Shown here in pieces: positions 11,457-25,782 of a stretch of DNA of 64,000 nucleotides; positions within the stretch are counted from its first letter, which is position 1; every line of letters begins with the position of its first letter. The stretch spans positions 8,759 to 72,758 of the forward strand of contig JAUIER010000013.1 of NCBI GenBank assembly GCA_030429765.1. The letters are read 5' to 3'. The translations under genes and the position numbers were made by a program. The notes under the pieces were generated by a model, which did no database searches, was not told where the DNA came from, and was given only the letters and a program-made list of their open reading frames with translations. The DNA comes from a bacterium. Lineage in GTDB: Bacteria; Omnitrophota; Gorgyraeia; Zapsychrales; Zapsychraceae.

Positions 11457-11846
11457 TCCGATCCTTTGTGGGTGTGATTGGTTTTTGTGCATTATAACAA
11501 AATTTTGTCCTCGAGCAAGCGTTTCGGTGCCGTATTTTCGTTGACAAAACTTATTATTTAAGTAAGATAATAAGACTTACCCAGCAGTAAATTTTTTAAC
11601 ACAAATCTTCCGAAAGGTTCACGTTGAACAGGTTATCATCACACTCGCACAATCATCGACGCAAGGCCGTTTTCTCGTCGAGAAACGCCTTTGGGGTGTT
11701 ATGCGCGGCCGCGATCGTCGCGTCGCTGACAGGCGTGTCAATGACAGGTCTTTTATGCGCCATGAGTGTGATCATGTGGGCCGTTATCAATGTGCCTAAA
11801 AAAGAGGCTGTGTTGGTCGTGAACCATACGTCACGTGGATGCAACT

Positions 11847-11872
11847 CGCGCTTAAGATCGCGCGGGTTTTTT
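11847..11872 (+). terminator. Terminator-like GC hairpin plus T6, 33 nt upstream of the tpx start
   Basis: CGCGC-ttaagatc-GCGCG stem-loop followed by TTTTTT. It could be an attenuator or the end of a leader/sRNA. Confidence 0.35.
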
Positions 11873-11904
11873 CAAATAATCGACTGTTTTGAAAGGAGTC
11901 AAAG

Positions 11905-13100: not shown

Positions 13101-13132
13101 ACCGGTCCTAAATCCCTGAAAATACACACCGT

Positions 13133-13183
13133 CCCGGGAAGAATGCCGATTTTTCCCGGGGCGGGAATATTTTGATTTTTTGT
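13133..13183 (+). terminator. Probable rho-independent terminator after sod
   Basis: 8-bp stem CCCGGGAA/TTCCCGGG followed by T-rich runs. Confidence 0.45.
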
Positions 13184-13225: not shown

Positions 13226-13276
13226 AATACTATATATTGTATTGCTAGCGTCCATTTTCTCCACATATAGTGTTAT
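13226..13276. promoter_or_regulatory. Two candidate NrdR boxes upstream of nrdA
   Basis: Two AT-rich 16-bp partial palindromes (ATACTATATATTGTAT and CACATATAGTGTTATT) about three helical turns apart. They resemble the NrdR-box consensus acaCwAtATaTwGtgt. Confidence 0.4.
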
Positions 13277-13397: not shown

Positions 13398-16300
13398 ATG
13401 TCCCATGAAACTTCAACAAGTTTGGAGATGAAAGTTTACAAACGAAATGGACAGGTGGTGGCCTTCAATGAAGCCCGCATCCAGAGCGCGATTGGCAATG
13501 CATTAAAAGAGCAGAAGAAGCTGCCGCGCGAGGCCGAGTTGTCCATTGTTGATGCCCACAACGCCAAGCACATCACGGATTGTGTGTTGTCGGTGCTGAC
13601 CGAGCGATGGTTGGAGAACGGTCAGTTAACGGTTGAAGAGATTCAGGACGAGGTGATCCGTCAGCTGTACGAGAACGGATTCAAGGAAGCGGCCGAACTG
13701 TACGCGAATTACCGCAAGCAGCATGCCGCGCGCCGGACATTATTTGAGTTGTATACGACGACCAAGCGCAACGGCAAGGTCGTATCATTCAAACCGGAAA
13801 AGATCACCATGGCCGTGTCGATGGCGTTTCGCGCGCACAATCACGGCATCCTTTCCCAGGACGTGCTTCAGCACGCCAAGAAGATTTCCGATATTGTCAT
13901 CAAAGAGATCCTCGAGAAGTGGCCGGAAGGCAAATGTGTGCATATCGAAGAGATCCAGGACATGGTCGAGAAAAACCTGATGACATCAGGTTTTCATGAA
14001 GTCGCCCGCAGTTATATCATCTACCGCGAGAAACGCAGCAAGGCCCGCCGCGCGCAGATCCTCGAAAAGACCGCGACCGAAACATTTGAATGGGCCAAGC
14101 ATCTCAAGTACAAGACCAACTCAGGCGAAGAAAAGCCGTTAAATCTCGAGGAGATCCGCTTTCAGATCGACACCTGCTGTCAGGGACTGGAAAATGTCGA
14201 GACCGACAAGATCCTCGAAGAGTCGCTCAAAAACTATTACAACGGCATCACCGAGGCCAAGATGGAGGCATCCAACATCATGGCCGCCAAATCCTTCCTC
14301 GAGCGCGAGCCGAATTACACCTACGCGGCATCGCGACTGTTACTCTTGAAACAATATCGTGAGGCCCTGAACCGGCCGGTGAGCTTTGAAGAGATCAAGA
14401 CCGAGTACTCAACCTATTTTGCCCGTTACATTCACCGGGCGGTGGATCTGGAATTATTGACACCGGATCTGCTTCAGTTTGATCTCAAGAAGCTTGGCGC
14501 GGCGATTCAGCCCAAACGTGATTTCAAGTTCCGTTATCTGGGATTGCAGACGCTGTATGACCGTTACTTTATCCACTGGGAAGAGGTTCGTCTAGAGCTT
14601 CCGCAGATCTTCTGGATGCGTGTGGCCATGGGCTTGGCGCAACGCGAAGGCGCCCGGAAGAACGAGCGCGCGATCGAGTTTTATAACATGCTATCAACCT
14701 TCCGATTTATGTCCTCGACGCCGACCTTGTTCAACGCCGGAACCCGCCATCCGCAATTGTCTTCGTGCTATCTGACCACCATCAATGACGATTTACAGCA
14801 CATCTTCAAGTGTATTCAGGACGACGCGATGCTGTCTAAATGGAGCGGCGGTCTGGGCAATGACTGGACCAATGTCCGTTCGATGGGATCGCGCATCAAG
14901 GGCACCAACGGCAAGAGCCAGGGGGTCATTCCATTCTTGAAGGTCGCCAATGATACGGCCCTCGCCGTCAATCAAGGTGGAAAACGTAAAGGCGCGATGT
15001 GTGCCTACCTTGAGGTATGGCATATGGATATCGAAGACTTTCTGGAGCTGTGGAAGAACACCGGTGATGATCGTCGGCGAACGCATGACATGCACACCGC
15101 CAGCTGGATCCCGGATCTGTTCATGAAGCGTCTTAAAGAAAACGGTAACTGGACGCTGTTCAGTCCCAACGAAGTGCCGGACCTGCATCACATTTACGGG
15201 CAGGAATTTGAACGCCGTTATGAAGAGTACGAGCGCCGGGCGCAGGCAGGCAAGATGAAGCAGTTCAAGACCATGCCGGCCGTGGATCTGTGGCGCAAAA
15301 TGCTCAACATGCTATTCGAAACAGGCCATCCATGGATCACCTGGAAGGACCCATCCAACGTGCGGTCACCTCAGAGTCATGTGGGAACAGTTCATAGCTC
15401 AAATCTGTGTACCGAAATTTTGCTGAACACGTCGTCAGAAGAGACAGCTGTATGTAACCTCGGATCAGTAAACCTGGCCGAGCACGTGTCGCTGGACGGC
15501 GGGATCAATCATCGCAAGCTGAAGTCCACGGTGCGAACGGCGGTCCGTATGCTGGATAATGTGATCGACATCAATTATTACCCGACATCCGAGGCCAAGC
15601 GCGCCAATCAGCGTCACCGCCCGATCGGGTTGGGGATTATGGGCTTCCAGGACGCGCTGTACATCCAGAACTGGAGCTATGCCTCGCGCGAAGCAGTGGA
15701 ATTTGCCGACGCGAGCATGGAGGCGGTATCCTACTATGCCATTCTGGCCTCGATCGAACTGGCCGCGGAAAAGGGCATTTACTCCTCGTACCGCGGGTCC
15801 AAATGGGATCAAGGGCTGCTGCCGATTGACACGCTGGCGCTATTGGAAAAAGAGCGCGGCGGTTATGTCAATATCGATCCCAAGACACGCATGGATTGGG
15901 ACGTCGTTCGCGGCGAACTCAAAAAGAAAGGCATCCGCAACAGTCTGGTGATGGCCATCGCCCCGACAGCGACCATCGGGAACATCGTCGGTGTCACGGC
16001 CTCCATCGAGCCGTTGTACAAGAATATCTTTGTGAAGAGTAATCTGTCCGGTGAGTTTACCGTGCTCAACGAATTTCTCGTCAATGACCTCAAGGCAGCC
16101 GGCCTGTGGGATCGGGAGATGATCGACGACTTGAAATACTTCGATGGAAGTATTCAGGAGATCGAGCGAATCCCCGAAGACCTCAAGCGCAAATACGCGA
16201 CGGCCTTTGAGATCGATTACGAATGGATCGTTGAATCCGCGGCCCGTCGTCAGAAGTGGATTGATATGGGACAATCACTCAATCTCTATCAGGCCAAACC

Positions 16301-16538
16301 CAGCGGCAAGAAGGTCAGCGATATGTATATGATGGCGTGGGAAAAAGGACTTAAGACCACGTATTACTTGAGGTCGATGGGCGCGACACGCATCGAGAAG
16401 AGCACGGTCGATGTCACACGCTACAACAACACCGTCGGACAACGCGAACGTGATGAATTCGGAAGAGTCACCGGCGCCGACGATCCCGACACAGCCCTAA
16501 GCATCGAGCCCAGCGAAGACTGCGAGGCTTGTCAGTAA
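13398..16538 (+). CDS. nrdA: Ribonucleoside-diphosphate reductase class Ia alpha subunit with N-terminal ATP-cone domains
   Basis: 1046 aa with repeated ATP-cone N-terminal segments, catalytic-core motifs (NLCTEI, SSCYL), and a C-terminal redox cysteine pair (CEAC). Confidence 0.9.
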   Translation: MSHETSTSLEMKVYKRNGQVVAFNEARIQSAIGNALKEQKKLPREAELSIVDAHNAKHITDCVLSVLTERWLENGQLTVEEIQDEVIRQLYENGFKEAAELYANYRKQHAARRTLFELYTTTKRNGKVVSFKPEKITMAVSMAFRAHNHGILSQDVLQHAKKISDIVIKEILEKWPEGKCVHIEEIQDMVEKNLMTSGFHEVARSYIIYREKRSKARRAQILEKTATETFEWAKHLKYKTNSGEEKPLNLEEIRFQIDTCCQGLENVETDKILEESLKNYYNGITEAKMEASNIMAAKSFLEREPNYTYAASRLLLLKQYREALNRPVSFEEIKTEYSTYFARYIHRAVDLELLTPDLLQFDLKKLGAAIQPKRDFKFRYLGLQTLYDRYFIHWEEVRLELPQIFWMRVAMGLAQREGARKNERAIEFYNMLSTFRFMSSTPTLFNAGTRHPQLSSCYLTTINDDLQHIFKCIQDDAMLSKWSGGLGNDWTNVRSMGSRIKGTNGKSQGVIPFLKVANDTALAVNQGGKRKGAMCAYLEVWHMDIEDFLELWKNTGDDRRRTHDMHTASWIPDLFMKRLKENGNWTLFSPNEVPDLHHIYGQEFERRYEEYERRAQAGKMKQFKTMPAVDLWRKMLNMLFETGHPWITWKDPSNVRSPQSHVGTVHSSNLCTEILLNTSSEETAVCNLGSVNLAEHVSLDGGINHRKLKSTVRTAVRMLDNVIDINYYPTSEAKRANQRHRPIGLGIMGFQDALYIQNWSYASREAVEFADASMEAVSYYAILASIELAAEKGIYSSYRGSKWDQGLLPIDTLALLEKERGGYVNIDPKTRMDWDVVRGELKKKGIRNSLVMAIAPTATIGNIVGVTASIEPLYKNIFVKSNLSGEFTVLNEFLVNDLKAAGLWDREMIDDLKYFDGSIQEIERIPEDLKRKYATAFEIDYEWIVESAARRQKWIDMGQSLNLYQAKPSGKKVSDMYMMAWEKGLKTTYYLRSMGATRIEKSTVDVTRYNNTVGQRERDEFGRVTGADDPDTALSIEPSEDCEACQ

Positions 16539-16876
16539 GGCGACACAAACCGTGTCGCCACCAGCGACACGAAGTGTCGCTGTGAGTGTTTCCGAAAGAG
16601 ATACGAAGTATCTCGAAAGGAAACACGGCAATATTACGAGATAGACGAAGTCTAAGAAGCTAGGCGACACAAACCGTGTCGCCACCAGTGCATCCCAGAA
16701 GGATGCACGTAAAAATAAGCATCCAAAGGATGTCGCCACCAGCGACACGAAGTGTCGCGTCGAGAGTTTTCGAAAGCGATATGAAATATCGTTAAAGAAT
16801 ACATGTAGCAAAGTCGCTCATACGAGTCCGACATGGTTTGTGTCGGACGAGGCGATTCAACCAGCGGCTGAATCGT
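16539..16876 (+). repeat. Dense array of at least 10 hairpins with duplicated units in the nrdA-nrdB spacer
   Basis: GGCGACAC-aaacc-GTGTCGCC appears twice (16539-16559 and 16663-16683). GCGACAC-gaa-GTGTCGC appears twice (16564-16580 and 16742-16758). There is a nested element GTGTTTCc-GAAAG-[GAGATAC-gaa-GTATCTC]-GAAAG-GAAACAC (16586-16626) with a degenerate copy at 16764-16800. Further hairpins are GTGCATCC-cagaa-GGATGCAC, GCATCC-aaa-GGATGt, GTCCGACA-tggtttg-TGTCGGAC and CGATTCA-N9-TGAATCG. The linker CCACCAGyG recurs three times. Confidence 0.6.
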
Positions 16877-16942
16877 CTACTTACCCGCCATGAGGTTAGG
16901 TAAAGTTTTCGGAATTAATTGTTCATCCCCAAGGAGTCGATC

Positions 16943-17989
16943 ATGTCAGAACCATGCATGAAAATGTCAAAACAGCGGGTCACCGCGGACGACAAAAAGA
17001 TCATTAACAACGACCGCACCGTCGACTGTAACCAGCTCGTGCCGATCAAGTACAAATGGGCCTGGAATTTTTATCTAGACGGCTGCGCCAATCACTGGAT
17101 GCCGCAGGAAGTCTCGATGCAGCGCGATATCGAGCAGTGGAAGAATCCCGACGGGTTCACCGATGCCGAGCGTCACGTGATCAAACGTACATTCGGTTTT
17201 TTTGCCACGGCCGAAACGCTGGTCGGCAACAACCTGGTGCTGGCGGTCTACAAGATCATCGACAACCCTGAAGCGCGTCAGTATCTGCTGCGTCAGGCCT
17301 TCGAGGAAGCGATTCATGTGCATGCGTTTCAGTACATCGTGCAGTCGCTGTCGCTGGATGAAGGGGAGATGTTCAATATGTACCGCGAGGTCGAGGCGAT
17401 CTACAATAAGGACGAGTACGCGATGAGCTGCACCGACGGGATCCTTGATCCGGACCTGGACACACGCAGCACCGAAGGTCTGCAGAAGTTTATCAAGAAC
17501 CTCGTGGGATTCTACGGGATCACCGAAGGGATCTTTTTCTACAGCGGGTTTGTAACGATGTTATCATTCGGACGACAGAACCGTCTGCCGGGGACATGCG
17601 AGCAGATCCAGTATATCCTGCGGGACGAAAGCATTCACATGAACTTCGGTCTGCAATTGATCAACGCGATCATCGACGAGAATCCGCAGGTCTGGACACA
17701 GGCGTTCAAGGATGAGATCGTTGAGTTTATCCGTAACGCCGTCGAGCTTGAGCACAAATACGCCGAAGAGTGTCTGCCGGACGGGATTCTGGGTCTGAAT
17801 ACAGATCTGCTCAAAGAATACATTCAGTACATCGCCGACCGCCGTTTCGAACGGCTTCGTCTGCCCAAACAATACGGCTCCGACAATCCATTCCCGTGGA
17901 TGAGCGAGATCATCGATCTCAAGAAAGAGAAGAACTTCTTCGAGACAAGGGTGACGGAGTATCAGACAGGTGGCGCGTTGGAGTGGTAA
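16943..17989 (+). CDS. nrdB: Ribonucleoside-diphosphate reductase beta subunit (di-iron/tyrosyl radical)
   Basis: R2 ferritin-like motifs (FFATAETLV, EEAIHVHAF, DESIHMNFG) and an AAGGAG RBS before the ATG at 16943. Confidence 0.9.
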   Translation: MSEPCMKMSKQRVTADDKKIINNDRTVDCNQLVPIKYKWAWNFYLDGCANHWMPQEVSMQRDIEQWKNPDGFTDAERHVIKRTFGFFATAETLVGNNLVLAVYKIIDNPEARQYLLRQAFEEAIHVHAFQYIVQSLSLDEGEMFNMYREVEAIYNKDEYAMSCTDGILDPDLDTRSTEGLQKFIKNLVGFYGITEGIFFYSGFVTMLSFGRQNRLPGTCEQIQYILRDESIHMNFGLQLINAIIDENPQVWTQAFKDEIVEFIRNAVELEHKYAEECLPDGILGLNTDLLKEYIQYIADRRFERLRLPKQYGSDNPFPWMSEIIDLKKEKNFFETRVTEYQTGGALEW

Positions 17990-18056
17990 AGAGTTAGTTT
18001 GTTTTTAGTGATTCGAGTTTCGAAGTAAATAGATAAAATGGAAACAGTTTTTAAAA

Positions 18057-18086
18057 GCCTCCGTGTCGATCGCGGAGGCTTTTTTC
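18057..18086 (+). terminator. Rho-independent terminator ending the nrdAB operon
   Basis: GCCTCCG-tgtcgatcg-CGGAGGC stem followed by TTTTTT. Confidence 0.7.
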
Positions 18087-18101
18087 CATGAGGAATCCAA
18101 C

Positions 18102-19160
18102 ATGATGTGTAAAAATTGTGGTTCGCAAAATGATACAAATAACAACCGGTGTGGTAATTGTGGAGAATCATTATCTTCTGATTCGAGAATTGATATTGAA
18201 AGAAAATTGGAAAGATTGCAGGATTTAGGTGATAGTATTGACAAGAGGATAAAATTTTTTGACAAGAACAAGGAACTTATAGAATTAAATATTGATGAAA
18301 GTTTTCGATCAATATTTAAGAAAAAGTATATAAATATAATTGGCCTTATTACTTTCATGTTCACAATTGGTGTCGTGATATTAACAATGTTTGGCTGGAA
18401 TAACTTTAAAAGTTGGTTAAGACTAGAGTCACAAGAATATATTAGACAGTTTGGTCGGGACGAAGTAGAAAAGCAGTTTGAAAGCAAAAATATTCGTGCT
18501 TTGGTAATTGAAGTCGCGGAAGATAAAATAACAAATGAGCTTAGTCCTTCGTTTGAAGATGTAAAAGGGCAGTTAGACGAGAAAGTAAAAGATTTTGACT
18601 TTGATATTAGGGAAGAATTAAGAACTACAAAGAATGATATCAGTAATCAGATTAGAATACTTAAAGAACGTAATGAAGTGGAGGCTTTAGTAGATTTAGC
18701 AATTGTTGAAGGTGACAGAGATGCTTATAATAAAATTAGTAAAGAGATAGAAAGATATTCGGATCACGCAGGTAGTACTACAAATTTCAAAAAGGTACGG
18801 CTTTATGGTTCTGCACTGACTAGAATAAAGTCATTTTATACGTCCGGGCATAGAAGACCTTACTTTAATTTAAATTTTGATCCAAATAGTATTACCGTAA
18901 AAGAATTACTGAAAATTGCTGGTAATGATACTGATTGGGTTAACAGAAGTGCTTCAGTCTATACCCTGGGATTTAAAAAAAATGAGGAAGTTGTTGAAAC
19001 TTTAATAAACGTTTGCAAGAAGGATGCTCGTCTGGATGTTGTTGAGGAGTCCATGACTTCACTGATGAGTTTACTTCAGGTGCAAATGGATGTGTTTGAT
19101 TGTGGCTGGGCTGAGTCATATTGGAGGTTAAATAGGGCGAAGGTTATCGAAAAATGGTAG
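18102..19160 (+). CDS. Hypothetical membrane protein: N-terminal Zn-ribbon (CxxC-X11-CxxC), one TM helix, long coiled-coil region, C-terminal HEAT/PBS-lyase-like repeats
   Basis: Strongly AT-rich gene unlike its flanks. N-terminus MMCKNCGSQNDTNNNRCGNCGE, a TM segment IIGLITFMFTIGVVILTMFGW, a charged coiled-coil, and a C-terminal DTDWVNRSASVYTLG...DARLDVVEESMTSL repeat. The start in the ORF track at 18063 lies inside the nrdB terminator, so the ATG at 18102 with a GAGGA RBS is preferred. Confidence 0.5.
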   Translation: MMCKNCGSQNDTNNNRCGNCGESLSSDSRIDIERKLERLQDLGDSIDKRIKFFDKNKELIELNIDESFRSIFKKKYINIIGLITFMFTIGVVILTMFGWNNFKSWLRLESQEYIRQFGRDEVEKQFESKNIRALVIEVAEDKITNELSPSFEDVKGQLDEKVKDFDFDIREELRTTKNDISNQIRILKERNEVEALVDLAIVEGDRDAYNKISKEIERYSDHAGSTTNFKKVRLYGSALTRIKSFYTSGHRRPYFNLNFDPNSITVKELLKIAGNDTDWVNRSASVYTLGFKKNEEVVETLINVCKKDARLDVVEESMTSLMSLLQVQMDVFDCGWAESYWRLNRAKVIEKW

Positions 19161-19663
19161 TTTTTACTGTCAGAATTATCGATATACTACTCATACAATG
19201 GGCTAAATTAATATGTTTGATTTATTTTCTAGCTCTATGTTTGGCTTTTTCTTCTCTGGCTCACGCCGATGTCAAAGAAGCCGAGCAGTTTTTTCTGAAG
19301 TACCAAGAGTTGTGGAATTCATTCGACATCGAAGCTGCTGATCTATATACGGATAATACTAAATTTTTGGGAAAACGTGTCTATCCTAACGGTGTTGTTC
19401 GATCTATAGATTTGCCAGCTCCGTATCTAAAGGACTTAATTCGAAACACGATGCCCCTGGCACGATTGAAAAATGATAGGACGGAGTATAGTAATGTAAA
19501 GTACGAGATTACAGAGTTAGGTGTCAAAATTTCTGCCGATCGCTATTCGACGATGAAATGCTTTACTGATCCAACATTCTATATCATTATCAAAAAAATT
19601 GATGGAGAGTACAAAATCGTCGAGTCATATGGAACGTCGCAACCGCAGTCGAATTGTCAGTAA
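19154..19663 (+). CDS. Hypothetical secreted protein, NTF2/SnoaL-like fold suspected
   Basis: Second AT-rich gene of the islet. It has a hydrophobic N-terminal signal ending AHA and a roughly 130-aa mature domain. The ATG overlaps the previous stop (ATGGTAG). Confidence 0.45.
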   Translation: MVVFTVRIIDILLIQWAKLICLIYFLALCLAFSSLAHADVKEAEQFFLKYQELWNSFDIEAADLYTDNTKFLGKRVYPNGVVRSIDLPAPYLKDLIRNTMPLARLKNDRTEYSNVKYEITELGVKISADRYSTMKCFTDPTFYIIIKKIDGEYKIVESYGTSQPQSNCQ

Positions 19664-19706
19664 CTGTAATCATTTCTTACAGGAACAGATCTGGTAAAAG
19701 TACAGC

Positions 19707-19871
19707 ATGCGAATCATTATTTATACTTTGCTAGCTATCTTAGCCTTCGTCGTGCTGATCACAGAATTATGGCACTACGATCCAGCAGAACCGGAGATAG
19801 GCGATAGTTATTCATCCGGCTACACCAATGTGATCAAACGGATGGCTCCGCTTGAGGACGAGGGATATTAG
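19707..19871 (+). CDS. Possible 54-aa single-TM micro-protein (missing from the ORF track because of its length)
   Basis: ATG at 19707, then MRIIIYTLLAILAFVVLITELW followed by an acidic tail. No homolog recognised. Confidence 0.25.
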   Translation: MRIIIYTLLAILAFVVLITELWHYDPAEPEIGDSYSSGYTNVIKRMAPLEDEGY

Positions 19872-19881
19872 AGGGCTCAAT

Positions 19882-20754
19882 GTGAAACGCCGCACGCGTA
19901 TTGTTATTTATGTAGGCATAGTACTGATGGTTTATGTCGGCCTGTTGCTGACCAATGTGATACCGTCGATGCTGTGGCGGGGGATTCGCGGGCCTCGGGG
20001 CGACGAACGGCGGATCGTGACGGTCCGGATCGAGTCGGACTATCAGCGTACACCTACCCGGATCAGGATTCTTGCCCCCAAGAATATGGAAGCAGGCCGG
20101 CGTTATCCGGTGTTGTATCTGTTGCCCTCAGTACCGCAGATCCTCGACCCGTGGTGGAACAGTCCGTTGATCGAGATCATCCGCTTCGATGTCGCCGATC
20201 GGCATCAGGTGATCTGTGTCGCGCCGACATACAGCGATATGCCGTGGTACGCCGATCATCCCACCGATCCCAAGATTCGTCAGGAAAGCTATCTGATCAA
20301 GGAGATTATTCCGTATATCGATGCCAATTATCCAACCATGGCCGAAGGGCGGGGGCGGTATCTGCTTGGGTACAGTAAATCCGGAACGGGCGCGTTCACT
20401 CTATTATTGCGGCATCCCGATCTGTTTTATCGGGCGCTCTCATGGGATGCCCCGATGTTCTTTCCGTTCAAGGAAATCCCCGGCTCTCAGCTCACCAAGA
20501 TCTACGGCACGCCGGAAAACTTCCGGCACTATCAATTACCCATCCTGTTCCGCCGGCGTTCTGCCGACTTTACAGGACCCGACCCGCGATTTATACTAAT
20601 GGGGTTCAGCGAGAATCCGATGGCGATCCATCGCGTGCACGAATACATGAACGCGTACAACATCACCCATAAATACGACAACACCACGCAAACCCGTCAC
20701 AACTGGCACAGCGGCTGGTTTGAGCGGGCGATCGGGCACTTATTTGACGAATGA
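19882..20754 (+). CDS. Putative esterase (alpha/beta hydrolase, esterase-D/enterochelin esterase-like), membrane-anchored or secreted
   Basis: PF00756-like pattern (YPVLYLLP ... RYLLGYSKSGTGAF ... SWDAPMF) and an N-terminal hydrophobic segment. The start is uncertain; the track ORF begins at a TTG at 19852. Confidence 0.55.
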   Translation: MKRRTRIVIYVGIVLMVYVGLLLTNVIPSMLWRGIRGPRGDERRIVTVRIESDYQRTPTRIRILAPKNMEAGRRYPVLYLLPSVPQILDPWWNSPLIEIIRFDVADRHQVICVAPTYSDMPWYADHPTDPKIRQESYLIKEIIPYIDANYPTMAEGRGRYLLGYSKSGTGAFTLLLRHPDLFYRALSWDAPMFFPFKEIPGSQLTKIYGTPENFRHYQLPILFRRRSADFTGPDPRFILMGFSENPMAIHRVHEYMNAYNITHKYDNTTQTRHNWHSGWFERAIGHLFDE

Positions 20755-21122
20755 TGGAATCCCAAAAATCACGATATAAGTTATCTATTTTTCTGATCCT
20801 TGGAATGATGACGCTTATACACCCGCAGCCAGCCAAGGCGGCCAATGAATGCATCCGCATCAATAAGAAAGAAAGTATGATCGCGGTGGTCGAGCGGATC
20901 AATCGTCAGCAGACCTGGTTGTATGTGATCAATGAGCAGACCGGCCGGCCGGAACGCTTTTACGCGCCGCGCGGGTATCTGAAAGAACTTGAGCCCGGCG
21001 ACCGTGTAAGGATCTATTACATCTGCGGCAGTCAGACCCTGCTGTCCGTCCGTCACATGACCCCGGTTGAGTTTGATGCCGAGGCGTCGAATCGGGGGTA
21101 TATCATGGGTGGACCCAAATAA
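20751..21122 (+). CDS. Hypothetical small secreted protein
   Basis: Signal-peptide-like N-terminus (LSIFLILGMMTLIHPQPAKA). The start overlaps the esterase stop. Confidence 0.4.
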   Translation: MMESQKSRYKLSIFLILGMMTLIHPQPAKAANECIRINKKESMIAVVERINRQQTWLYVINEQTGRPERFYAPRGYLKELEPGDRVRIYYICGSQTLLSVRHMTPVEFDAEASNRGYIMGGPK

Positions 21123-21150
21123 TGCTGTTAGTATGATATAAAATTAGTAA

Positions 21151-21367
21151 AAGGACCTGGCTTGAGTTAGGCGGAGTCGGGTTGAAGTATTAATTGGAAG
21201 CATAGAAAATAATCGTAGTCATCAATTATGGAAAGGAGGTCGGAGTCGCCTTGAAGCATGTCGACTTTAGCCTTCTAAGATTAACATGAATAAGGACTTT
21301 GCTTGAGATGGGCGGAGTCGCGTTGAGGCATCGCGACTCCTACTGGCGAAAAGCAGAGCTTTTCGCC
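21151..21367 (+). repeat. Three degenerate direct repeats at about 70-nt period (core GGAGTCG-N-TTGAAG/TTGAGG), ending in two adjacent perfect 9-bp-stem hairpins
   Basis: Repeat copies AAGGACcTgGCTTGAGtTaGGCGGAGTCGgGTTGAAG at 21151 and AAGGACtTTGCTTGAGaTgGGCGGAGTCGcGTTGAGG at 21292, with a shorter GGAGTCGCCTTGAAGCATGTCGAC between them. Hairpins GGAGTCGCG-ttgaggcat-CGCGACTCC (21314-21340) and GGCGAAAAG-cagag-CTTTTCGCC (21345-21367). Confidence 0.5.
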
Positions 21368-21433
21368 TTGGAACCTTCAAATATTTTAAAGATCAAGAGC
21401 CTGACGAGTGACTGGTATGACAAGGATATGGTC

Positions 21434-21688
21434 ATGCTGCACGCGTGTTTTCAATTGCTGGAGGACTGTGTCGAACAGGAGAACCTGCTCGACGGATTCA
21501 CCGACTGGGATCAGACCGAGGAGTTTCAGGAGGCCTACAAGGATCTCAAGGAGTTGTACGAGTGGTGGCAGATCCGTAAGCAGTTGATCACCATGGAAAA
21601 GTACGATGAGCTCGAAGAAGAAAACTACGACGAGGACACCCGCCGGCTGCAGCAGCTGATCCGCTGGCGGCATATGCTCTGGACTTAG
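21434..21688 (+). CDS. Hypothetical acidic protein (about 85 aa)
   Basis: An AAGGA RBS sits 7 nt before the ATG at 21434. The longer track ORF (from 21299) would translate through the two strong hairpins, so the shorter start is preferred. Confidence 0.4.
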   Translation: MLHACFQLLEDCVEQENLLDGFTDWDQTEEFQEAYKDLKELYEWWQIRKQLITMEKYDELEEENYDEDTRRLQQLIRWRHMLWT

Positions 21689-21696
21689 TTACAATA

Positions 21697-22218
21697 ATGA
21701 AATCAGATCTAAAGACACAGATCATTGCAATATTTGAAGAACATCGCGAAAAGCCCGAAGACGATTACAATCCCGGGCATTTCCTGGATTTTCTGATGCC
21801 GGACCCGCCAGCGCGGCGGGCGGTGATGAATTCCTTTGCGGGACTCAGACGTTACAATGCCTTTGTCGATGCCGTGCAGGAAGAACGCGGCGTGTATTTT
21901 TCGCAAAAGGACCGCGACGCGCATTACAGTCTGGATGCCTTTTGTGAGCGCGTTAAGGCCCTGCAGAATTCCCCCAAGTCATCCCTTCAATCGCTCAACA
22001 ACGCCCTCAAGCGCCGGCCCAACTGGAATTTTATGATCCTGGTCAATGTGATTGCTCTCAGTATTATCGTCGCCCTACGGCAGCATCCGTTCGTCGCCGC
22101 CGTGCTGGGCCTGATCCTGACCTTTTTCAATTATCGGCTGTACCGGTTTCACCGGCATGAACGTGACTATCTGGTCCGGCTCAATGAACAGATCAAGGCC
22201 GCCGCATCCGGCACATGA
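21697..22218 (+). CDS. Hypothetical membrane protein (two C-terminal TM helices)
   Basis: Hydrophilic N-terminal domain followed by FMILVNVIALSIIVAL and FVAAVLGLILTFF TM segments. Confidence 0.45.
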   Translation: MKSDLKTQIIAIFEEHREKPEDDYNPGHFLDFLMPDPPARRAVMNSFAGLRRYNAFVDAVQEERGVYFSQKDRDAHYSLDAFCERVKALQNSPKSSLQSLNNALKRRPNWNFMILVNVIALSIIVALRQHPFVAAVLGLILTFFNYRLYRFHRHERDYLVRLNEQIKAAASGT

Positions 22219-22315
22219 TTACAAATCTAATTGGGTTTTGTAATTAACAATCCCCCCGCCATCCAGTATAATCAAGAGAAACCAAGTCTGAGACCAATTA
22301 ATCAAAGGAGATCGT

Positions 22316-22630
22316 ATGATCACAACGAGTATTGAATCGGTTCCGGGACGCAAGATCGTGGAACAGTACGGGATCGTGCAGGGAAGTACCGTACGGGCCA
22401 AAAACGTCGGGGTGGACTGTGTGGCCGGCTGTCAGAATACGTTTGGGGGCGAGCTCAAGGGATATTCACAGCTGCTCGAAGAATCGCGGGCCGAGGCGCT
22501 TGATCGCATGATCCAGCAGGCCGAGCAAAAAGGGGCGAATGCGGTGATCAATGTCCGCTTCGGAACGTCAACCATCACCCAGGGCGCGTCCGAGATCCTG
22601 GCCTATGGAACGGCCGTTCTCGTACAATAG
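22316..22630 (+). CDS. YbjQ/UPF0145 (DUF74) family protein
   Basis: 104 aa. SVPGRKIVEQYGIVQGSTVRAKNVG...ANAVINVRF is characteristic of YbjQ. Confidence 0.8.
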   Translation: MITTSIESVPGRKIVEQYGIVQGSTVRAKNVGVDCVAGCQNTFGGELKGYSQLLEESRAEALDRMIQQAEQKGANAVINVRFGTSTITQGASEILAYGTAVLVQ

Positions 22631-22639
22631 GAGGTCCGG

Positions 22640-23104
22640 ATGGAAAATTTAATTGGACTGATTTTCACCGTCGGGCTGATCGTTGTCGCATACTTTGTGG
22701 GCAAGACGATTGAGAACCGGCACTTTGAGGCGCTGAAGGCGCGCGAGCGTGAATTTCTGGATCTGCCGAGCCTCACGACGCAGCATTCGTATGACGAGGA
22801 AGGCATACAGGACTGCCGTCTGGTCTACGGGAATGTGGTGATCTCCGGCGACTATTTCAAAATGGTGCTCGCGGCGCTGTTGAAATTTTTTGGCGGGCGC
22901 ATTGTTGGATATGAATCGTTGATTGACCGGGCCCGTCGGGAGGCGATCCTGCGCATGCAGGCGGAGGCCAGGCAGTTCGGCGCGGACGCGGTGATCAACA
23001 CCCGTTTTGAGATGAGCAAACTCGATGCCATGACGCAGAATCAGGGAACCGGCATGTTTGAGATCCTGGTGTACGGCACGGCGATTAAGGTCAATCATGG
23101 CTAA
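22640..23104 (+). CDS. YbjQ/UPF0145-like protein with N-terminal TM anchor
   Basis: TM segment LIGLIFTVGLIVVAYFV followed by a YbjQ-like core (ADAVINTRFE...ILVYGTAIKV). Confidence 0.7.
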   Translation: MENLIGLIFTVGLIVVAYFVGKTIENRHFEALKAREREFLDLPSLTTQHSYDEEGIQDCRLVYGNVVISGDYFKMVLAALLKFFGGRIVGYESLIDRARREAILRMQAEARQFGADAVINTRFEMSKLDAMTQNQGTGMFEILVYGTAIKVNHG

Positions 23105-23996
23105 GTATGTCCCCCGCGAGACAACCGATAATGTCAACGTGTCGCGTGACAATCCGCTCGGTGTTTTTATCAAGGCCCTGATCGGGTTATCCGCGCTGAT
23201 GGCGATCACCTTTGTGGTGCTGGTGACATTGTCGGAGGTGTTTATCCGGTTTATGCCGGAGCGGGTCAATTTTGCCCTGGCCAAGATTATCTCTGAGAGA
23301 ATCGATACGCCGGAGCATCTCGAGGCGGAGCGTGAACGCATTCAGCAGATCCTCAATCAGGCGCTGGCGCAGACACGCTTCGAGGGCGATGAGTTCCGGC
23401 TGGAAATCCTTGAGACCGACGAGAAAAACGCGATGGCCTTTCCCGGGCGGACGATCGCGATCACCACGGAATTGCTCAAAGAATTAAAGTATGAAAACGA
23501 ATTGGTGATGATCCTCGGGCATGAGATCGGTCATTATCACAACAATGATCATCTGCGCTCCATGAGCCGGGCCGGCATCCTGATGGGGCTGGTGGGGTTG
23601 CTTGAGATCGGCGGGGCGGGCAGCGCGTCGAGTGTGATCAGCGGCACGACCAATCTGTTTTTCGGCCAGTATTCCCGGCATCAGGAGACCATGGCCGATG
23701 AATTTGGTCTGACGGTGCTGGATCAATACTACGGTCATGTCGACGGCGCCGTCAATACGTTTGAGGTGTTACGACAGGCCAACGAAAAAATGCTGACGCT
23801 GAACGGAATCCTGTCGACGCATCCGATCACCGATCAGCGGATGGAGCATTTAGAAAAATTGATTACGCAAATGGAATTGACGGATGAATCCGACGGATTG
23901 ATCCCGTTTGAGTTTAACCCCGAACCGCCTGACGATGAGGAGCCGGAAGATGACAGCGACGATGAAGAGCGTTCAGCCGACGATCAAACCGCTTAA
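23097..23996 (+). CDS. M48-family Zn metallopeptidase (HtpX/Ste24-like), membrane-anchored, acidic C-terminal tail
   Basis: HEIGH motif (LGHEIGHYHNND), a downstream ETMADEFG, and one N-terminal TM segment. The start overlaps the YbjQ-2 stop by 8 nt. Confidence 0.8.
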   Translation: MAKYVPRETTDNVNVSRDNPLGVFIKALIGLSALMAITFVVLVTLSEVFIRFMPERVNFALAKIISERIDTPEHLEAERERIQQILNQALAQTRFEGDEFRLEILETDEKNAMAFPGRTIAITTELLKELKYENELVMILGHEIGHYHNNDHLRSMSRAGILMGLVGLLEIGGAGSASSVISGTTNLFFGQYSRHQETMADEFGLTVLDQYYGHVDGAVNTFEVLRQANEKMLTLNGILSTHPITDQRMEHLEKLITQMELTDESDGLIPFEFNPEPPDDEEPEDDSDDEERSADDQTA

Positions 23997-24015
23997 TCCG
24001 CTTAAGGCGTGGTGG

Positions 24016-24576
24016 ATGGAGCGGGTGCTGTGGTGGCGCAGTTTTTGGCCGGTGATGTTCGCGCACAAACCTTTATGCGATCGATTTCACACGCATACGA
24101 TCCGCGTTGGACGGACCCATGTGTGCCGCAGCTGCGCGATTTTGTATGTATCGATGGCCTTATCTGTCATGTTCTTTGTGGTGTTGATGCAAGGACATAC
24201 TCTCCCTATCGAGGGAATGGTCGGGATAGCGGGGCTGACCATGGTTTTATCCTTTCCACCACTATATAAAAATCTGCCGCGAATCATTAAGGATGGAGTT
24301 CGCGCGTTGTTGGGTGTGTCAATCGCGGGAACGATCATGCTGGCGGTTGACGGTCAATGGCCATGGGCCGCGGGCATGGCGGTGGGGCTGTGGGGCGCCA
24401 AGTTGTTGTTTCAGATGTTTCGCGCGCGGCGTTCGGCCTCGGCCTGCGACAGCTGTCCGGAGTATCGGCAAAATCAGATCTGTTCAGGGTATCGTCTTAA
24501 GGCCCGACGGATGAGGATCTATGAACGCGTCCTGACACAGAAGATCCTGCGGTATCAAAGGTTCAGCGAGTCCTGA
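24016..24576 (+). CDS. DUF2085-like Cys-rich membrane protein
   Basis: HKPLCDRF...VCRSCAILY matches the DUF2085 pattern (HxxPxRsf...vCaRCtGiy). Multiple TM helices, with a C-terminal CDSCPE...ICSG motif. An alternative start is at 23959. Confidence 0.5.
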   Translation: MERVLWWRSFWPVMFAHKPLCDRFHTHTIRVGRTHVCRSCAILYVSMALSVMFFVVLMQGHTLPIEGMVGIAGLTMVLSFPPLYKNLPRIIKDGVRALLGVSIAGTIMLAVDGQWPWAAGMAVGLWGAKLLFQMFRARRSASACDSCPEYRQNQICSGYRLKARRMRIYERVLTQKILRYQRFSES

Positions 24577-24602
24577 TTTTTTTTTGACGTTGTTCGTCGA
24601 TT

Positions 24603-24631
24603 TTGACAATGTCGCCTGATTCACCTATACT
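24603..24631 (+). promoter_or_regulatory. Near-consensus sigma70 promoter (TTGACA-N17-TATACT)
   Basis: Hexamers and spacing read directly from the sequence. It lies about 40 nt upstream of the 24670 gene. Confidence 0.45.
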
Positions 24632-24669
24632 AAAGATCGTTATTCACATCACCATCGGGAGGCGCATCT

Positions 24670-25365
24670 ATGATCACGCAGCGAATCAAATTCTTGCTTT
24701 TTATCGGCATGGCCGTCATGTCGATTCATCCATCCGTCGTTGAGGCGAAGATCGGCGATTCGGCCTTTCGGCTGGTCGACAATCCCTTTATTCAACAATA
24801 CAACTTTAGACGTACCACCGACGAGAAACGCCTGGATGGCGAAGAGGTGCTGCTCTACACGGCCCGCGGGAGTATGCTGGAGATCATCATCGATGCCAAC
24901 CGCACTATCCGTCAGCAATCGCTCACGACGATTTATAAATTCGCGGACAATACCATCCCGCCGATGATCGTCAGCTATATCGACGACGCCCGGGGCTTTG
25001 CCGATGGCAAGACGGAGCCGGTGGCTGAGCTGCTTGAGAAAGTGCAAAATCATCAGCGCGCGCGGATGCGGATTTCAGAACTTCATCGGCTTGAGGCGGA
25101 ATTGGAGACAGGCGCTGAGTACGCGGCCAACAGCGGTCTGCTCACGTTAACGGTGTATCCGGCCGAGGGGGTAAAGTTGGGCGTCCATAAGAAGGCGTCT
25201 TCGTCCCCGCTGATCCGTACCGGCGTCAGGACCATTTATCTACAGAACGGACGGACCTTGACCGGCGAGATCCTTGAAGAGAGCGCGACGCATTACACGG
25301 TCAACGCCTTTGACGGCACCATCCAGATGAGCTTCGACAAGTCCGAAGTCCTCCGCATCGAATAA
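24670..25365 (+). CDS. Hypothetical secreted protein
   Basis: Signal peptide (FLLFIGMAVMSIHPSVVEA) followed by a roughly 200-aa domain of unknown function. Confidence 0.5.
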   Translation: MITQRIKFLLFIGMAVMSIHPSVVEAKIGDSAFRLVDNPFIQQYNFRRTTDEKRLDGEEVLLYTARGSMLEIIIDANRTIRQQSLTTIYKFADNTIPPMIVSYIDDARGFADGKTEPVAELLEKVQNHQRARMRISELHRLEAELETGAEYAANSGLLTLTVYPAEGVKLGVHKKASSSPLIRTGVRTIYLQNGRTLTGEILEESATHYTVNAFDGTIQMSFDKSEVLRIE

Positions 25366-25508
25366 TTGGTGTCAGAACTCCCCAAACCGAATATTTGCAG
25401 ACATTTACAAATAAATTCCTGCGCCGAGATTTTTTGAGTCTAGATCATAAAATGAATTATAGCTTAAGTGATTGGTATATATAGTTTTAGCGAGTTCTGA
25501 CACCAATT
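25364..25508. mobile_element. MITE-like element: perfect 17-bp terminal inverted repeats (AATTGGTGTCAGAACTC) flanking a 111-bp AT-rich core
   Basis: The left arm is 25364-25380 and overlaps the upstream stop codon. The right arm is 25492-25508 and is its exact reverse complement. Alternatively this is a long-range terminator stem. Confidence 0.35.
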
Positions 25509-25535
25509 GTTTAAAAAGGCGGGGTTGTTTTTGAC

Positions 25536-25564
25536 ATCGGGGGATATCGGTTCTAGAATCAGGT
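25536..25564 (+). promoter_or_regulatory. Near-consensus sigma70 promoter (TTGACA-N17-TAGAAT) for the PLDc_N micro-protein gene
   Basis: Read directly from the sequence. Confidence 0.45.
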
Positions 25565-25596
25565 ATAGTGATGTCATTTAACCAAGGAGGGAAGCG

Positions 25597-25761
25597 ATGG
25601 GTTTTATTTTAGGTCCGGTTGTTTTTATTTTAGATATTCTCGCGCTGGTGGATTGCTGGAAGAGTGGGATGGATCAGAACAAGAAGATCTTGTGGACGAT
25701 TCTCATCTTGATTCTGCCATTGGTCGGATTGATCCTGTATTATCTGGTGGGAAAAAAGTAA
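25597..25761 (+). CDS. PLDc_N-family small membrane protein (54 aa)
   Basis: MGFILGPVVFILDILALVDCWKSG...KILWTILILILPLVGLILYYLVGKK matches the phospholipase-D-nuclease N-terminal micro-protein family. AAGGAGG RBS. The gene is below the ORF-track length cutoff. Confidence 0.55.
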   Translation: MGFILGPVVFILDILALVDCWKSGMDQNKKILWTILILILPLVGLILYYLVGKK

Positions 25762-25782
25762 CACGCGCTGAATTGATTGACA

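What the first reader, a model, noticed from the sequence alone, without database searches (positions are those of the whole stretch)
16539..16876. The nrdA-nrdB spacer is a 340-nt mosaic of about ten hairpins, including exact duplications and a nested cruciform
This spacer is far longer and more structured than an ordinary intercistronic gap. Immediately after the nrdA stop there are at least ten stem-loops. Two pairs are exact duplicates: GGCGACAC-aaacc-GTGTCGCC twice and GCGACAC-gaa-GTGTCGC twice, each followed by the linker CCACCAGyG, which occurs three times in total. One element is a nested structure with symmetric GAAAG internal loops around an inner GAGATAC-gaa-GTATCTC hairpin, and a degenerate second copy lies about 180 nt downstream. 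Loops are short and purine-rich (GAA, GAAA, CAGAA). This could be a REP-like repeat cluster or a structured cis-RNA that sets the NrdA:NrdB ratio or mRNA stability. It could also be an undescribed small RNA or protein-binding array embedded in an essential operon.
Basis: seen in the sequence. Interest (0 to 1): 0.7.

Follow-up and report, generated by a model that had tools for sequence, protein, structure and literature searches.

The report
Hairpin array between nrdA and nrdB
The 404-base gap between the two ribonucleotide-reductase genes of an uncultured Omnitrophota bacterium really is a stack of eleven hairpins built by local duplication; it most likely tunes expression of the two subunits, as the REP cluster at the same place in E. 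coli does, and is not a new kind of element.

Summary
The nrdA-nrdB spacer (16539-16942, 404 nt) carries 11 stem-loops. It has exact 27- and 28-nt duplications and an 80-nt unit repeated 178 nt downstream. Its fold z-score is about -10 to -13, against -4.6 to +2.8 for the window's other intergenic gaps.

The units are not dispersed in what I could sample. There is no other copy in the 64-kb window or in about 640 kb of fetched loci, and no transposase gene in the window. No Rfam family matches.

The array is young. Omnitrophota relatives with NrdB at or below 92% identity have spacers of -4 to 114 nt. Only the window, L082 (258 nt) and L083 (294 nt) have long, hairpin-rich ones.

Between the window and L082, unconstrained DNA is randomised (4-fold sites about 50% identical). 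Even so, the nested hairpin keeps a 39-nt identical core. Hairpin H11 keeps 92% pairing at 55% identity, and eight base pairs show double compensatory changes. In all three genomes a stable hairpin abuts or covers the nrdA stop codon.

Best reading: a transcribed, locus-specific intercistronic hairpin array acting post-transcriptionally, analogous to the E. coli nrdAB REP cluster but failing REP membership. Function is inferred, and genome-wide copy number could not be tested.

The parts
13227..13273 (+). Operon control region upstream of nrdA. It has two NrdR-box-like 16-mers (13227-13242 and 13258-13273, 31 bp apart) overlapping a promoter-like TTGCTA-18-TATAGT (13242-13271).
   Evidence: The same 31-bp pair occurs in L084. 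The NrdR-box consensus is from my own knowledge (Rodionov and Gelfand 2005). This places the promoter upstream of nrdA, so the spacer would be transcribed as part of the nrdAB mRNA.
13398..16538 (+). nrdA, class I RNR large subunit, 1046 aa, stop codon TAA at 16536-16538.
   Evidence: Pfam ATP-cone (2 stretches), Ribonuc_red_lgN and Ribonuc_red_lgC (E 4.6e-191).
16539..16559 (+). H1 (A1): GGCGACAC-AAACC-GTGTCGCC, 8 bp, -13.8 kcal/mol. It starts on the first base after the nrdA stop codon.
   Evidence: It is part of the exact 27-nt duplicate 16538-16564 = 16662-16688.
16562..16582 (+). H2 (B1): CAGCGACAC-GAA-GTGTCGCTG, 9 bp, -13.5 kcal/mol. It uses the same stem sequence as H1, so an alternative hairpin (16551-16571, -12.4) can form between H1's 3' arm and H2's 5' arm.
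   Evidence: Exact 28-nt duplicate 16553-16580 = 16731-16758. The orthologue in L082 carries a C-G to U-A double change.
16586..16626 (+). H3 (C1): two-tier hairpin with an 8-bp outer stem, a symmetric GAAA/GAAA internal loop, a 7-bp inner stem and a GAA loop, -19.8 kcal/mol. The 39-nt core 16587-16625 is identical in L082.
   Evidence: The closing pair covaries: G-C here, A-U in L082.
16642..16654 (+). H4: TAGAC-GAA-GTCTA, 5 bp, weak (about -1 kcal/mol).
16663..16683 (+). H5 (A2): exact copy of H1.
16688..16708 (+). H6: GTGCATCC-CAGAA-GGATGCAC, 8 bp, -11.9 kcal/mol. It shares its stem sequence with H7.
   Evidence: The covariance model of the B-C unit gives a weak hit on 16660-16709 (23.5 bits).
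16719..16733 (+). H7 (A3): GCATCC-AAA-GGATGT, 6 bp with a closing G-U, -5.8 kcal/mol. It is followed by the third CCACCAGCG linker.
16742..16758 (+). H8 (B2): GCGACAC-GAA-GTGTCGC, an exact copy of the H2 core.
16764..16804 (+). H9 (C2): diverged paralogue of H3. Both tiers are kept through compensatory changes (A-U to C-G and C-G to U-A in the inner stem, C-G to U-A in the outer stem), and two outer pairs are broken. -9.3 kcal/mol.
16826..16848 (+). H10: GTCCGACAT-GGTTT-GTGTCGGAC, 9 bp, -14.4 kcal/mol. It is H1-like with the loop inverted.
   Evidence: (inverted repeats I3 and I4, 94% complementary to H1 and H5).
16850..16878 (+). H11: AGGCGATTCAACC-AGC-GGCTGAATCGTCT, 13 pairs, -13.6 kcal/mol. 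It is orthologous to the last hairpin of the L082 spacer.
   Evidence: 16 of 29 bases identical, yet 92% of cells paired, with 3 pairs changed on both sides.
16878..16942 (+). Poorly structured nrdB leader. Blocks conserved with L082 are TACTTACCC (16878-16886) and GTTCATCCCCAAGGAGT (16921-16937), the latter including the Shine-Dalgarno AAGGAG (16931-16936).
   Evidence: 23 of 26 identical next to the ATG.
16943..17989 (+). nrdB, class I RNR small subunit, 348 aa.
   Evidence: Pfam Ribonuc_red_sm (E 3.1e-90). 100% identity and coverage to the 348-aa P0001.
18057..18085 (+). Intrinsic terminator of the nrdAB operon: GCCTCCG...CGGAGGC followed by a T-run.
   Evidence: A stem plus T-run is present at the same place in five related genomes, with different stem sequences.

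Best explanation
The spacer is a transcribed, locus-specific array of stable RNA hairpins inside the nrdAB mRNA of an uncultured Omnitrophota bacterium.

**How it arose (read from the sequence).** The ancestral short spacer of a small sub-lineage expanded. Hairpin modules then multiplied by local direct duplication (178-nt and 124-nt periods), re-use of the same stem, and loop inversion. These are the kinds of changes that template switching and slippage at palindromes produce.

**How it most likely works (inferred, not shown).** The array acts after transcription to set the relative output of NrdA and NrdB.
1. The hairpin that begins at the first base after the nrdA stop codon lies within ribosome reach. 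It would hinder termination or ribosome release and so lower NrdA yield, as reported for REP elements within 15 nt of a stop codon, with E. coli nrdAB as the reported case.
2. The stack of hairpins would block 3'-to-5' exonucleases and uncouple nrdB translation from nrdA. nrdB then starts from its own unstructured, conserved Shine-Dalgarno region.
3. The invariant two-tier hairpin C may be a recognition or cleavage site for a protein, for example a double-strand-specific RNase. This is the most speculative step.
For: **Transcribed within the operon**
- A promoter-like site and an NrdR-box pair lie upstream of nrdA.
- No promoter-like or terminator-like site lies on the + strand in the spacer.
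- The intrinsic terminator lies after nrdB.

**Exceptional structure**
- The fold z-score is -10.4 to -12.7, against -4.6 to +2.8 for 13 other gaps of the window (15 stretches folded).

**Locus-specific**
- No other copies appear in any sampled DNA.

**Constraint**
- Window against L082, 4-fold degenerate sites are 47-51% identical, and DNA beyond the terminator is 9 of 34 identical.
- Even so, hairpin C has a 39-nt identical run. The longest runs in nrdA and nrdB are 38 and 27 nt.
- H11 keeps 92% pairing at 55% identity.
- Five pairs in B-C and three in H11 changed on both sides.
- The unpaired B-C linker has diverged.
- No recombination tract explains this: flanking coding identity is a uniform 0.73-0.93 per 60 nt.

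**Stop-adjacent hairpin in all three long-spacer genomes**
- It starts at +1 in the window and L082, and the stem includes the TAG stop in L083. The stems have unrelated sequences.

**Precedent**
- The E. coli nrdA-nrdB spacer is itself a cluster of REP-type palindromes starting 10 nt after the stop (z -7.4).
- PMC12306157 reports that REPs at or within 15 nt of a stop codon stall ribosomes and names the nrdAB transcript as the published example.
Against: - No expression data exist, so every functional step is inference.
- The array is missing from all relatives with NrdB at or below 92% identity (spacers -4 to 114 nt). It is therefore dispensable for nrdAB function.
- Hairpin content turns over quickly. 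L083 shares only four collinear 8-11-mers with the window, and the alignment z-score is 1.5.
- Plus- and minus-strand RNA folds are about equally stable. The G-U against A-C count (4-5 against 1) is not significant. Structure in single-stranded DNA is therefore not excluded.
- Compensatory changes in palindromes can arise by template switching without selection (PMC8794818).
- Across 58 nrdAB spacers of at least 60 nt, stop-proximal hairpins are only weakly enriched over shuffles: 18 against 16.6 at -8 kcal/mol, and 7 against 3.2 at -15.
- Covariation rests on only 2-3 sequences.
Confidence: 0.5

Rival explanations
1. Neutral by-product. A permissive spacer became a nursery of palindromes through replication slippage and template switching. 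The hairpins fold when transcribed but have no selected function.
For: - The array is absent in most relatives, so it is dispensable.
- Length and content vary among the three carriers, at 404, 258 and 294 nt.
- It shows the marks of DNA-level palindrome mutagenesis: exact 27- and 28-nt duplicates, re-used stems, and an inverted loop in H10.
- Template switching is documented to create hairpins, apparent compensatory changes and loop inversions (PMC8794818).
Against: - The 39-nt identical core of hairpin C and the retained pairing of H11 persist although neutral sites between the window and L082 are randomised.
- The unpaired linker next to hairpin C has diverged.
- A hairpin has stayed at the stop codon in three genomes with three different stem sequences.
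Confidence: 0.25
2. The spacer is a local cluster of a genome-wide REP, BIME or MITE-like family, mobilised by a RAYT or IS200/IS605-type transposase encoded elsewhere in the genome.
For: - It is made of short palindromes clustered in both orientations in a transcribed extragenic site, as in BIMEs. The E. coli nrdAB spacer is exactly such a cluster.
- The nested hairpin has GAAA on both sides of the inner hairpin, which could be read as a target duplication.
- A 39-nt identity between diverged genomes could also reflect recent insertion of a mobile unit.
Against: - There is no further copy in the 64-kb window at up to 3 mismatches.
- There is none in 705 kb of window plus fetched loci or by covariance model in 260 kb.
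- No other hairpin cluster exists in the window or in relatives.
- No conserved GTAG-type head precedes the palindromes.
- No transposase domain was found in the window's 66 ORFs.
- The units are absent from IMG/VR viral contigs.
- With 100 or more copies in a genome of about 2 Mb (an assumed size, not measured), about 3 extra copies would be expected in 64 kb.
Confidence: 0.12
3. The palindromes are double-stranded DNA operators for a dimeric regulator such as NrdR, or for another protein bound as an array.
For: The arms are palindromic (GCGACAC/GTGTCGC) and repeated four times. Hairpin C is conserved in sequence as well as in structure.
Against: - Half-site spacing varies (3 against 5 nt) for the same arms, and different hairpins use unrelated arms.
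- Substitutions preserve pairing, not sequence.
- The NrdR-like boxes are upstream of nrdA, with none in the spacer.
- The site lies between two cistrons with no promoter-like sequence to regulate.
Confidence: 0.04
4. The spacer encodes something of its own: a small protein (for example the 104-aa minus-strand ORF 16497-16811) or an independent small RNA gene.
For: ORFs of 20-104 aa can be drawn on both strands. Two weak terminator-like sites lie on the minus strand.
Against: - The 104-aa ORF has no Pfam match.
- It is not preserved in L082, where only unrelated ORFs of 25-55 aa occur.
- Its internal repeats simply mirror the palindromes.
- No promoter-like site lies in the spacer on the + strand.
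- No Rfam family reaches threshold. The best sub-threshold hit is osmY RNA, 20.4 bits against a gathering score of 46.9.
Confidence: 0.05

Closest known systems
REP/BIME cluster in the E. coli nrdA-nrdB spacer (translation-modulating REPs; Liang, Rudd and Deutscher 2015, as summarised in PMC12306157)
   Same: - Same operon and same position: a 233-nt spacer made of several stable palindromes (z -7.4).
- The first palindrome starts within 15 nt of the nrdA stop codon.
- It lies inside the polycistronic mRNA.
- The reported effect is ribosome stalling and lower expression of the upstream gene.
   Different: - E. coli REPs belong to a family of hundreds of dispersed copies with a conserved head and a cognate RAYT. 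The units here were found only at this locus and share no sequence with REPs.
- The hairpin here starts at +1, not +10.
- The array contains a two-tier hairpin under strong sequence conservation.
Intercistronic stem-loops that set differential mRNA stability within operons (malE-malF REPs, Rhodobacter puf operon hairpins). Cited from my own knowledge: Newbury et al. 1987; Klug and Belasco work.
   Same: Stable hairpins between two cistrons of one transcript. They are expected to block 3'-to-5' exonucleases and protect the upstream segment.
   Different: Those cases use one to a few hairpins, whereas this array has eleven with internal duplications. No decay data exist here.
Phage T4 nrdA-nrdB intergenic insertion (mobE with an internal weak terminator)
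   Same: It is an accessory insertion between nrdA and nrdB. It is proposed to modulate read-through and so coordinate NrdB with NrdA synthesis (PMC2988022).
   Different: T4 carries a homing-endonuclease gene with a U-tract terminator and a separate nrdB promoter. The spacer here has no ORF, no U-tract and no promoter-like site.
RNase III processing hairpins between cistrons (phage T7 early mRNA). Cited from my own knowledge.
   Same: Hairpin C is an irregular stem of about 19 stacked positions in two tiers, separated by an internal loop, and it sits between two cistrons.
   Different: This is a resemblance of shape only. No cleavage data exist, and I could not check whether the genome has RNase III.
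Hairpins created and maintained by template-switch mutations (PMC8794818)
   Same: Perfect stems, re-used arms, an inverted loop (H10 against H1) and paired double changes all fit that mutational mechanism.
   Different: That is a mechanism of origin, not a function. It does not explain the 39-nt identity across randomised neutral sites.

Membership tests
REP/BIME (repetitive extragenic palindromes) | Imperfect palindromes of 20-40 nt in transcribed extragenic DNA, often clustered in alternating orientation. | tested here: met
   Eleven palindromes of 13-41 nt lie in the nrdA-nrdB spacer, and H10 is inverted relative to H1 and H5.
REP/BIME (repetitive extragenic palindromes) | Many dispersed copies at other intergenic sites of the same genome. 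| tested here: not met
   There are no extra copies in the 64-kb window at up to 3 mismatches, none in 705 kb of window plus fetched loci, and none by covariance model in 260 kb. Caveat: only a small part of the source genome could be examined (its size is unknown, assumed about 2 Mb). The genome is not in the GTDB-representative collection, where only 6 chance-level hits in unrelated taxa were found.
REP/BIME (repetitive extragenic palindromes) | Conserved GT[AG]G-type head next to the palindrome (RAYT recognition). The feature definition is from my own knowledge. | tested here: not met
   The hairpins are preceded by TAAG, ACCA, GCTA or similar. The only shared flank is the 3' CCACCAGYG linker.
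REP/BIME (repetitive extragenic palindromes) | Cognate RAYT or Y1 transposase gene in the genome. | not testable with these tools
   None of the window's 66 ORFs has a transposase domain. The rest of the genome is not available.
Stop-codon-proximal translation-modulating hairpin (functional class of the E. coli nrdAB REP) | Stable hairpin beginning within 15 nt of the stop codon of the upstream cistron. | tested here: met
   H1 starts at +1 (-13.8 kcal/mol). The L082 hairpin starts at +1 (-14.0). The L083 stem includes the TAG stop (-16.5). The criterion is taken from PMC12306157.
Stop-codon-proximal translation-modulating hairpin (functional class of the E. coli nrdAB REP) | Lies within a read-through polycistronic transcript. 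| tested here: inconclusive
   Prediction only. The promoter-like site and NrdR-like boxes are upstream of nrdA, none is in the spacer, and the terminator is after nrdB. No RNA data exist.
Stop-codon-proximal translation-modulating hairpin (functional class of the E. coli nrdAB REP) | Lowers upstream protein yield through ribosome stalling or trans-translation, or changes mRNA half-life. | not testable with these tools
   This needs reporters or RNA and protein measurements.
Any curated RNA family (Rfam 15) | Score at or above the family's gathering threshold. | tested here: not met
   There are 0 hits in the whole window. The permissive scan gives only sub-threshold chance-level hits.
NrdR operator | 16-bp palindrome close to acaCwAtATaTwGtgt, in tandem pairs 31-32 bp apart (consensus from my own knowledge). 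| tested here: not met
   Matches with 4 or fewer mismatches occur at 13227 and 13258 upstream of nrdA, but not in the spacer.
MITE or IS200/IS605-derived palindromic element | Defined ends with terminal or subterminal repeats, target duplication, and multiple copies. | tested here: inconclusive
   No additional copies were found. GAAA flanks the inner hairpin of C on both sides, but this is equally a symmetric internal loop. No element boundaries can be defined by comparison with empty sites, because the short spacers of relatives cannot be aligned.

The most novel reading that the evidence does not exclude
Two novel readings remain open.

1. The array is a palindromic-repeat family caught at birth. 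Hairpin modules are being generated and amplified at a single locus by template switching and duplication, and some are already under selection, before any genome-wide spread.
2. Alternatively, or in addition, the invariant 41-nt two-tier hairpin C is the specific binding or cleavage site of an Omnitrophota RNA-binding protein or RNase that sets RNR subunit stoichiometry.

Either reading would make this an independent, convergent invention of the device that E. coli builds from REPs at the same position of the same operon.
Probability: 0.15. Interest if true: 0.6.

Novelty: new variant of a known kind. Interest (0 to 1): 0.35.

Why it matters
- Ribonucleotide reductase needs balanced large and small subunits. 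How bacteria set that balance within one operon is known in only a few models.
- An unrelated, locally built hairpin array sits at the very place where E. coli carries translation-modulating REPs. This suggests recurrent selection for a structured brake right after the nrdA stop codon.
- The locus also shows hairpins being made by duplication, stem re-use and loop inversion, with some then held by selection. That bears on how REP-like families and structured mRNA elements originate.
- The practical impact is modest. The element is confined to two or three uncultured genomes, and its function is untested.

Tried and rejected
- **Rfam.** The gathering-threshold scan of the whole window and the permissive scan of 16450-18150 gave nothing usable.
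- **Phage DNA.** A distant search and two IMG/VR pattern scans for hairpin C found no match.
- **Genome-wide dispersal.** The GTDB-representative scan with GCGACACN{3,5}GTGTCGCCACCAG returned only six single hits in unrelated taxa. It did not return the source locus, so the source genome is not in that collection and the test could not be completed.
- **Retrieving the source MAG.** Exact-protein look-ups returned only an 11-kb Logan contig identical to the window.
- **Closer relatives.** A search with the NrdA C-terminus found nothing above 81% identity.
- **Coding potential of the spacer.** Rejected. The ORFs have no Pfam match and are not conserved in L082.
- **CsrA-type GGA-loop sponge.** Rejected on reading the sequence. 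By my own count, GGA occurs about 6 times in 404 nt, near the roughly 6 expected by chance. Where it occurs in hairpins it lies in stems, not loops.
- **NrdR operators in the spacer.** Rejected.
- **Internal promoter or intrinsic terminator on the + strand.** None predicted.
- **Strand asymmetry of folding.** Tried as a way to separate RNA-level from DNA-level structure. It was uninformative: -141.5 against -137.4 kcal/mol.
- **Homology of the L083 spacer to the window spacer.** Only four collinear 8-11-mers are shared, which is not significant.
- **General enrichment of stop-proximal hairpins in nrdAB spacers across phyla.** Weak at best.
- **Liang et al. 2015 and Liang and Deutscher 2016.** Neither could be read, as they are not held. 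That mechanism is cited through PMC12306157 and from my own knowledge.
Full report
**What is there**

ORF 13398-16538 (1046 aa) has two ATP-cone stretches plus the RNR large-subunit N-terminal and barrel domains. The ORF ending at 17989 is an RNR small subunit. NrdB starts at ATG 16943: the 348-aa product is 100% identical over its full length to database protein P0001, and AAGGAG lies 6 nt upstream. The spacer is therefore 16539-16942, or 404 nt. NrdB relatives that carry a source name are all labelled Candidatus Omnitrophota or Omnitrophica MAGs.

The spacer contains 11 stem-loops, H1 to H11.

- A 27-nt stretch is duplicated exactly (16538-16564 = 16662-16688).
- A 28-nt stretch is duplicated exactly (16553-16580 = 16731-16758).
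- An 80-nt unit (16546-16625) recurs 178 nt downstream at 80% identity.
- H1 and H2 use the same stem sequence with different loops, as do H6 and H7. H10 is an H1-like hairpin with the loop inverted.

The RNA fold is far more stable than shuffled sequence. The z-score is -10.4, and -11.1 and -12.7. Thirteen other intergenic gaps of the window (15 stretches folded) score between -4.6 and +2.8. Eight of the window's 25 perfect hairpins of at least 7 bp lie in these 310 nt. An independent Logan assembly (L001) has an identical spacer.

**Is it a dispersed repeat?**

Not in anything I could sample.

- The 21-mer, the 17-mer and the linker have no other match in the window, even with mismatches allowed.
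- blastn-short of the three long spacers against the window plus all fetched loci (705 kb) finds them only in nrdAB spacers.
- A covariance model of the B-C unit finds only its training sequences and the related H5-H6 segment in 260 kb of Omnitrophota DNA.
- None of the window's 66 ORFs carries a transposase domain.
- No Rfam family matches, and no phage or viral contig carries the units.

The one scan of GTDB representative genomes returned six single, chance-level hits in unrelated taxa and did not return the source locus. The source genome is therefore not in that collection. Genome-wide copy number remains the main open point.

**Comparative picture**

In Omnitrophota relatives with NrdB 74-92% identical, nrdA and nrdB are separated by only -4 to 114 nt. 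These short spacers are mostly unstructured.

Only three genomes have long, hairpin-rich spacers:

| Genome | NrdB identity to window | Spacer length | Fold z-score |
|---|---|---|---|
| window | 100% | 404 nt | -10.4 to -12.7 |
| L082 | 98% | 258 nt | -8.1 to -8.3 |
| L083 | 93% | 294 nt | -6.0 to -7.3 |

By NrdA identity these three form the innermost group, so one expansion in their common ancestor is the simplest history.

- L082 carries a single A-B-C unit followed by three other hairpins and an orthologue of H11.
- L083 has different hairpins. It shares only four collinear 8-11-mers with the window, which is not significant.

**Evidence for constraint**

The window and L082 are far apart at unconstrained sites.

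- Four-fold degenerate sites are 47-51% identical.
- GC3 of nrdB differs, at 0.72 against 0.54.
- DNA beyond the operon terminator is 9 of 34 identical.
- Coding identity around the spacer is a uniform 0.73-0.93 per 60 nt, so there is no recent recombination tract.

Against that background:

- Hairpin C has a 39-nt identical core. The longest identical runs in nrdA and nrdB are 38 and 27 nt. Its closing pair covaries, G-C against A-U.
- The 7-nt linker next to hairpin C has diverged.
- B differs by one C-G to U-A double change.
- The paralogue C2 keeps both tiers through three double changes (22 pairs, 97% of cells paired, 5 pairs changed on both sides, 4 of 500 shuffles as high).
- H11 is only 16 of 29 identical, yet 92% of cells are paired and 3 pairs changed on both sides.

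These counts rest on two or three sequences. Template switching at palindromes can also mimic compensation (PMC8794818). I therefore treat them as supportive, not conclusive.

Folding of the two strands is equally stable, so RNA-level and single-stranded-DNA-level structure are not separated by computation.

**Context in the operon**

- A strong intrinsic terminator follows sod (13129-13164).
- A promoter-like site overlapped by two NrdR-box-like 16-mers, 31 bp apart, lies upstream of nrdA. The same pair occurs in L084.
- No promoter-like or terminator-like site lies on the + strand within the spacer.
- A conserved intrinsic terminator follows nrdB.

The array is therefore predicted to sit inside the nrdAB mRNA.

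In all three long-spacer genomes a stable hairpin abuts or includes the nrdA stop codon. The three stems have unrelated sequences. The last 65 nt before nrdB are weakly structured and include a conserved Shine-Dalgarno block.

**Closest known case**

The E. coli K-12 nrdA-nrdB spacer (233 nt) is itself a cluster of REP-type palindromes (z -7.4), the first starting 10 nt after the stop. PMC12306157 summarises Liang, Rudd and Deutscher (2015). In that work, REPs within 15 nt of a stop codon stall ribosomes and down-regulate translation, with nrdAB as the reported transcript. I could not read the original paper.

In phage T4 the same spacer holds mobE. Its internal terminator has been proposed to coordinate NrdB with NrdA synthesis (PMC2988022).

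Across 58 nrdAB spacers of at least 60 nt from diverse metagenomes, stop-proximal hairpins are only weakly enriched over shuffles: 18 against 16.6 at -8 kcal/mol, and 7 against 3.2 at -15. I therefore do not claim a general rule.

**Verdict**

The feature is real and statistically extreme. It works most plausibly like the E. coli nrdAB REP cluster, that is, as a brake on termination of the upstream cistron, an exonuclease barrier, and a translational uncoupler. This reading has confidence about 0.5 and its steps are inferred.

It fails the tested REP membership criteria. It shows no dispersal in sampled DNA and no conserved head, and a RAYT gene could not be assessed genome-wide.

The main rivals are:
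- a neutral palindrome nursery (0.25);
- an unsampled dispersed family (0.12).

I rate it a new variant of a known kind, of moderate-to-low interest. Its value lies in the convergence with E. coli and in the visible mode of hairpin birth.

Noticed in passing
window 13227-13273 (also L084 6629-6675): Two NrdR-box-like 16-mers (ATACTATATATTGTAT and TCTCCACATATAGTGT) lie 31 bp apart. They overlap a promoter-like TTGCTA-18-TATAGT upstream of nrdA. The same spacing occurs in L084, and single boxes occur in L083 and L085.
   Followed up: partly
window 17990-18085: The nrdB 3' UTR is 60 of 73 identical between the window and L082, although DNA after the terminator is random (9 of 34). The intrinsic terminator 18057-18085 is kept with different stems in five genomes. 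The mechanically listed ORF 18063-19160 (GTG start) overlaps this terminator, so its real start is probably further downstream.
   Followed up: partly
window about 18090-25900: About 7.8 kb lies between the nrdB terminator and the 141-aa ORF 25901-26326. That ORF's orthologue (73% identical) directly follows nrdB in L084, and ORFs of 137-142 aa sit in the same position in L085, L094 and L095. The inserted stretch encodes a Zn-ribbon/HEAT protein, an esterase, two YbjQ proteins and an M48 peptidase. The gene after nrdB in L082 is unrelated to the window's, and L083 carries a 211-aa ORF there that was not compared, so this looks like a variable islet next to nrdAB.
   Followed up: partly
L063 2465-2515 (distant nrdAB locus): A tandem heptamer repeat (GTCCGAT)n begins right after the nrdA stop codon.
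   Followed up: no
L096 3152-3384 (E. coli K-12 nrdA-nrdB spacer): The spacer is visibly made of about five REP-type palindromes (z -7.4), yet the feature table returned for this stretch lists no repeat feature there. It lists only the tiny ORF yoaM.
   Followed up: partly
nrdB genes of window, L082-L085: GC3 of nrdB ranges from 0.34 to 0.72 among relatives with 91-98% identical NrdB. This indicates rapid compositional drift in this Omnitrophota group.
   Followed up: no
window 11493-11904, against L084 4573-5304 and L085 4669-5337: An aquaporin (MIP) gene lies between the thioesterase and AhpC genes in L084 and L085. It is absent in the window, L001 and L083.
   Followed up: no
window 31473-33009: My crude ORF map shows a 1.5-kb apparent gap here. 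Relatives carry BolA, glutaredoxin/GST and glutathione synthetase genes between the glutaredoxin and GshA genes. The gap is probably missed genes, not non-coding DNA.
   Followed up: no
L005 451-540: A more distant Omnitrophota relative has a single, very stable two-tier hairpin (-33 kcal/mol) starting 6 nt after the nrdA stop in a 90-nt spacer.
   Followed up: no
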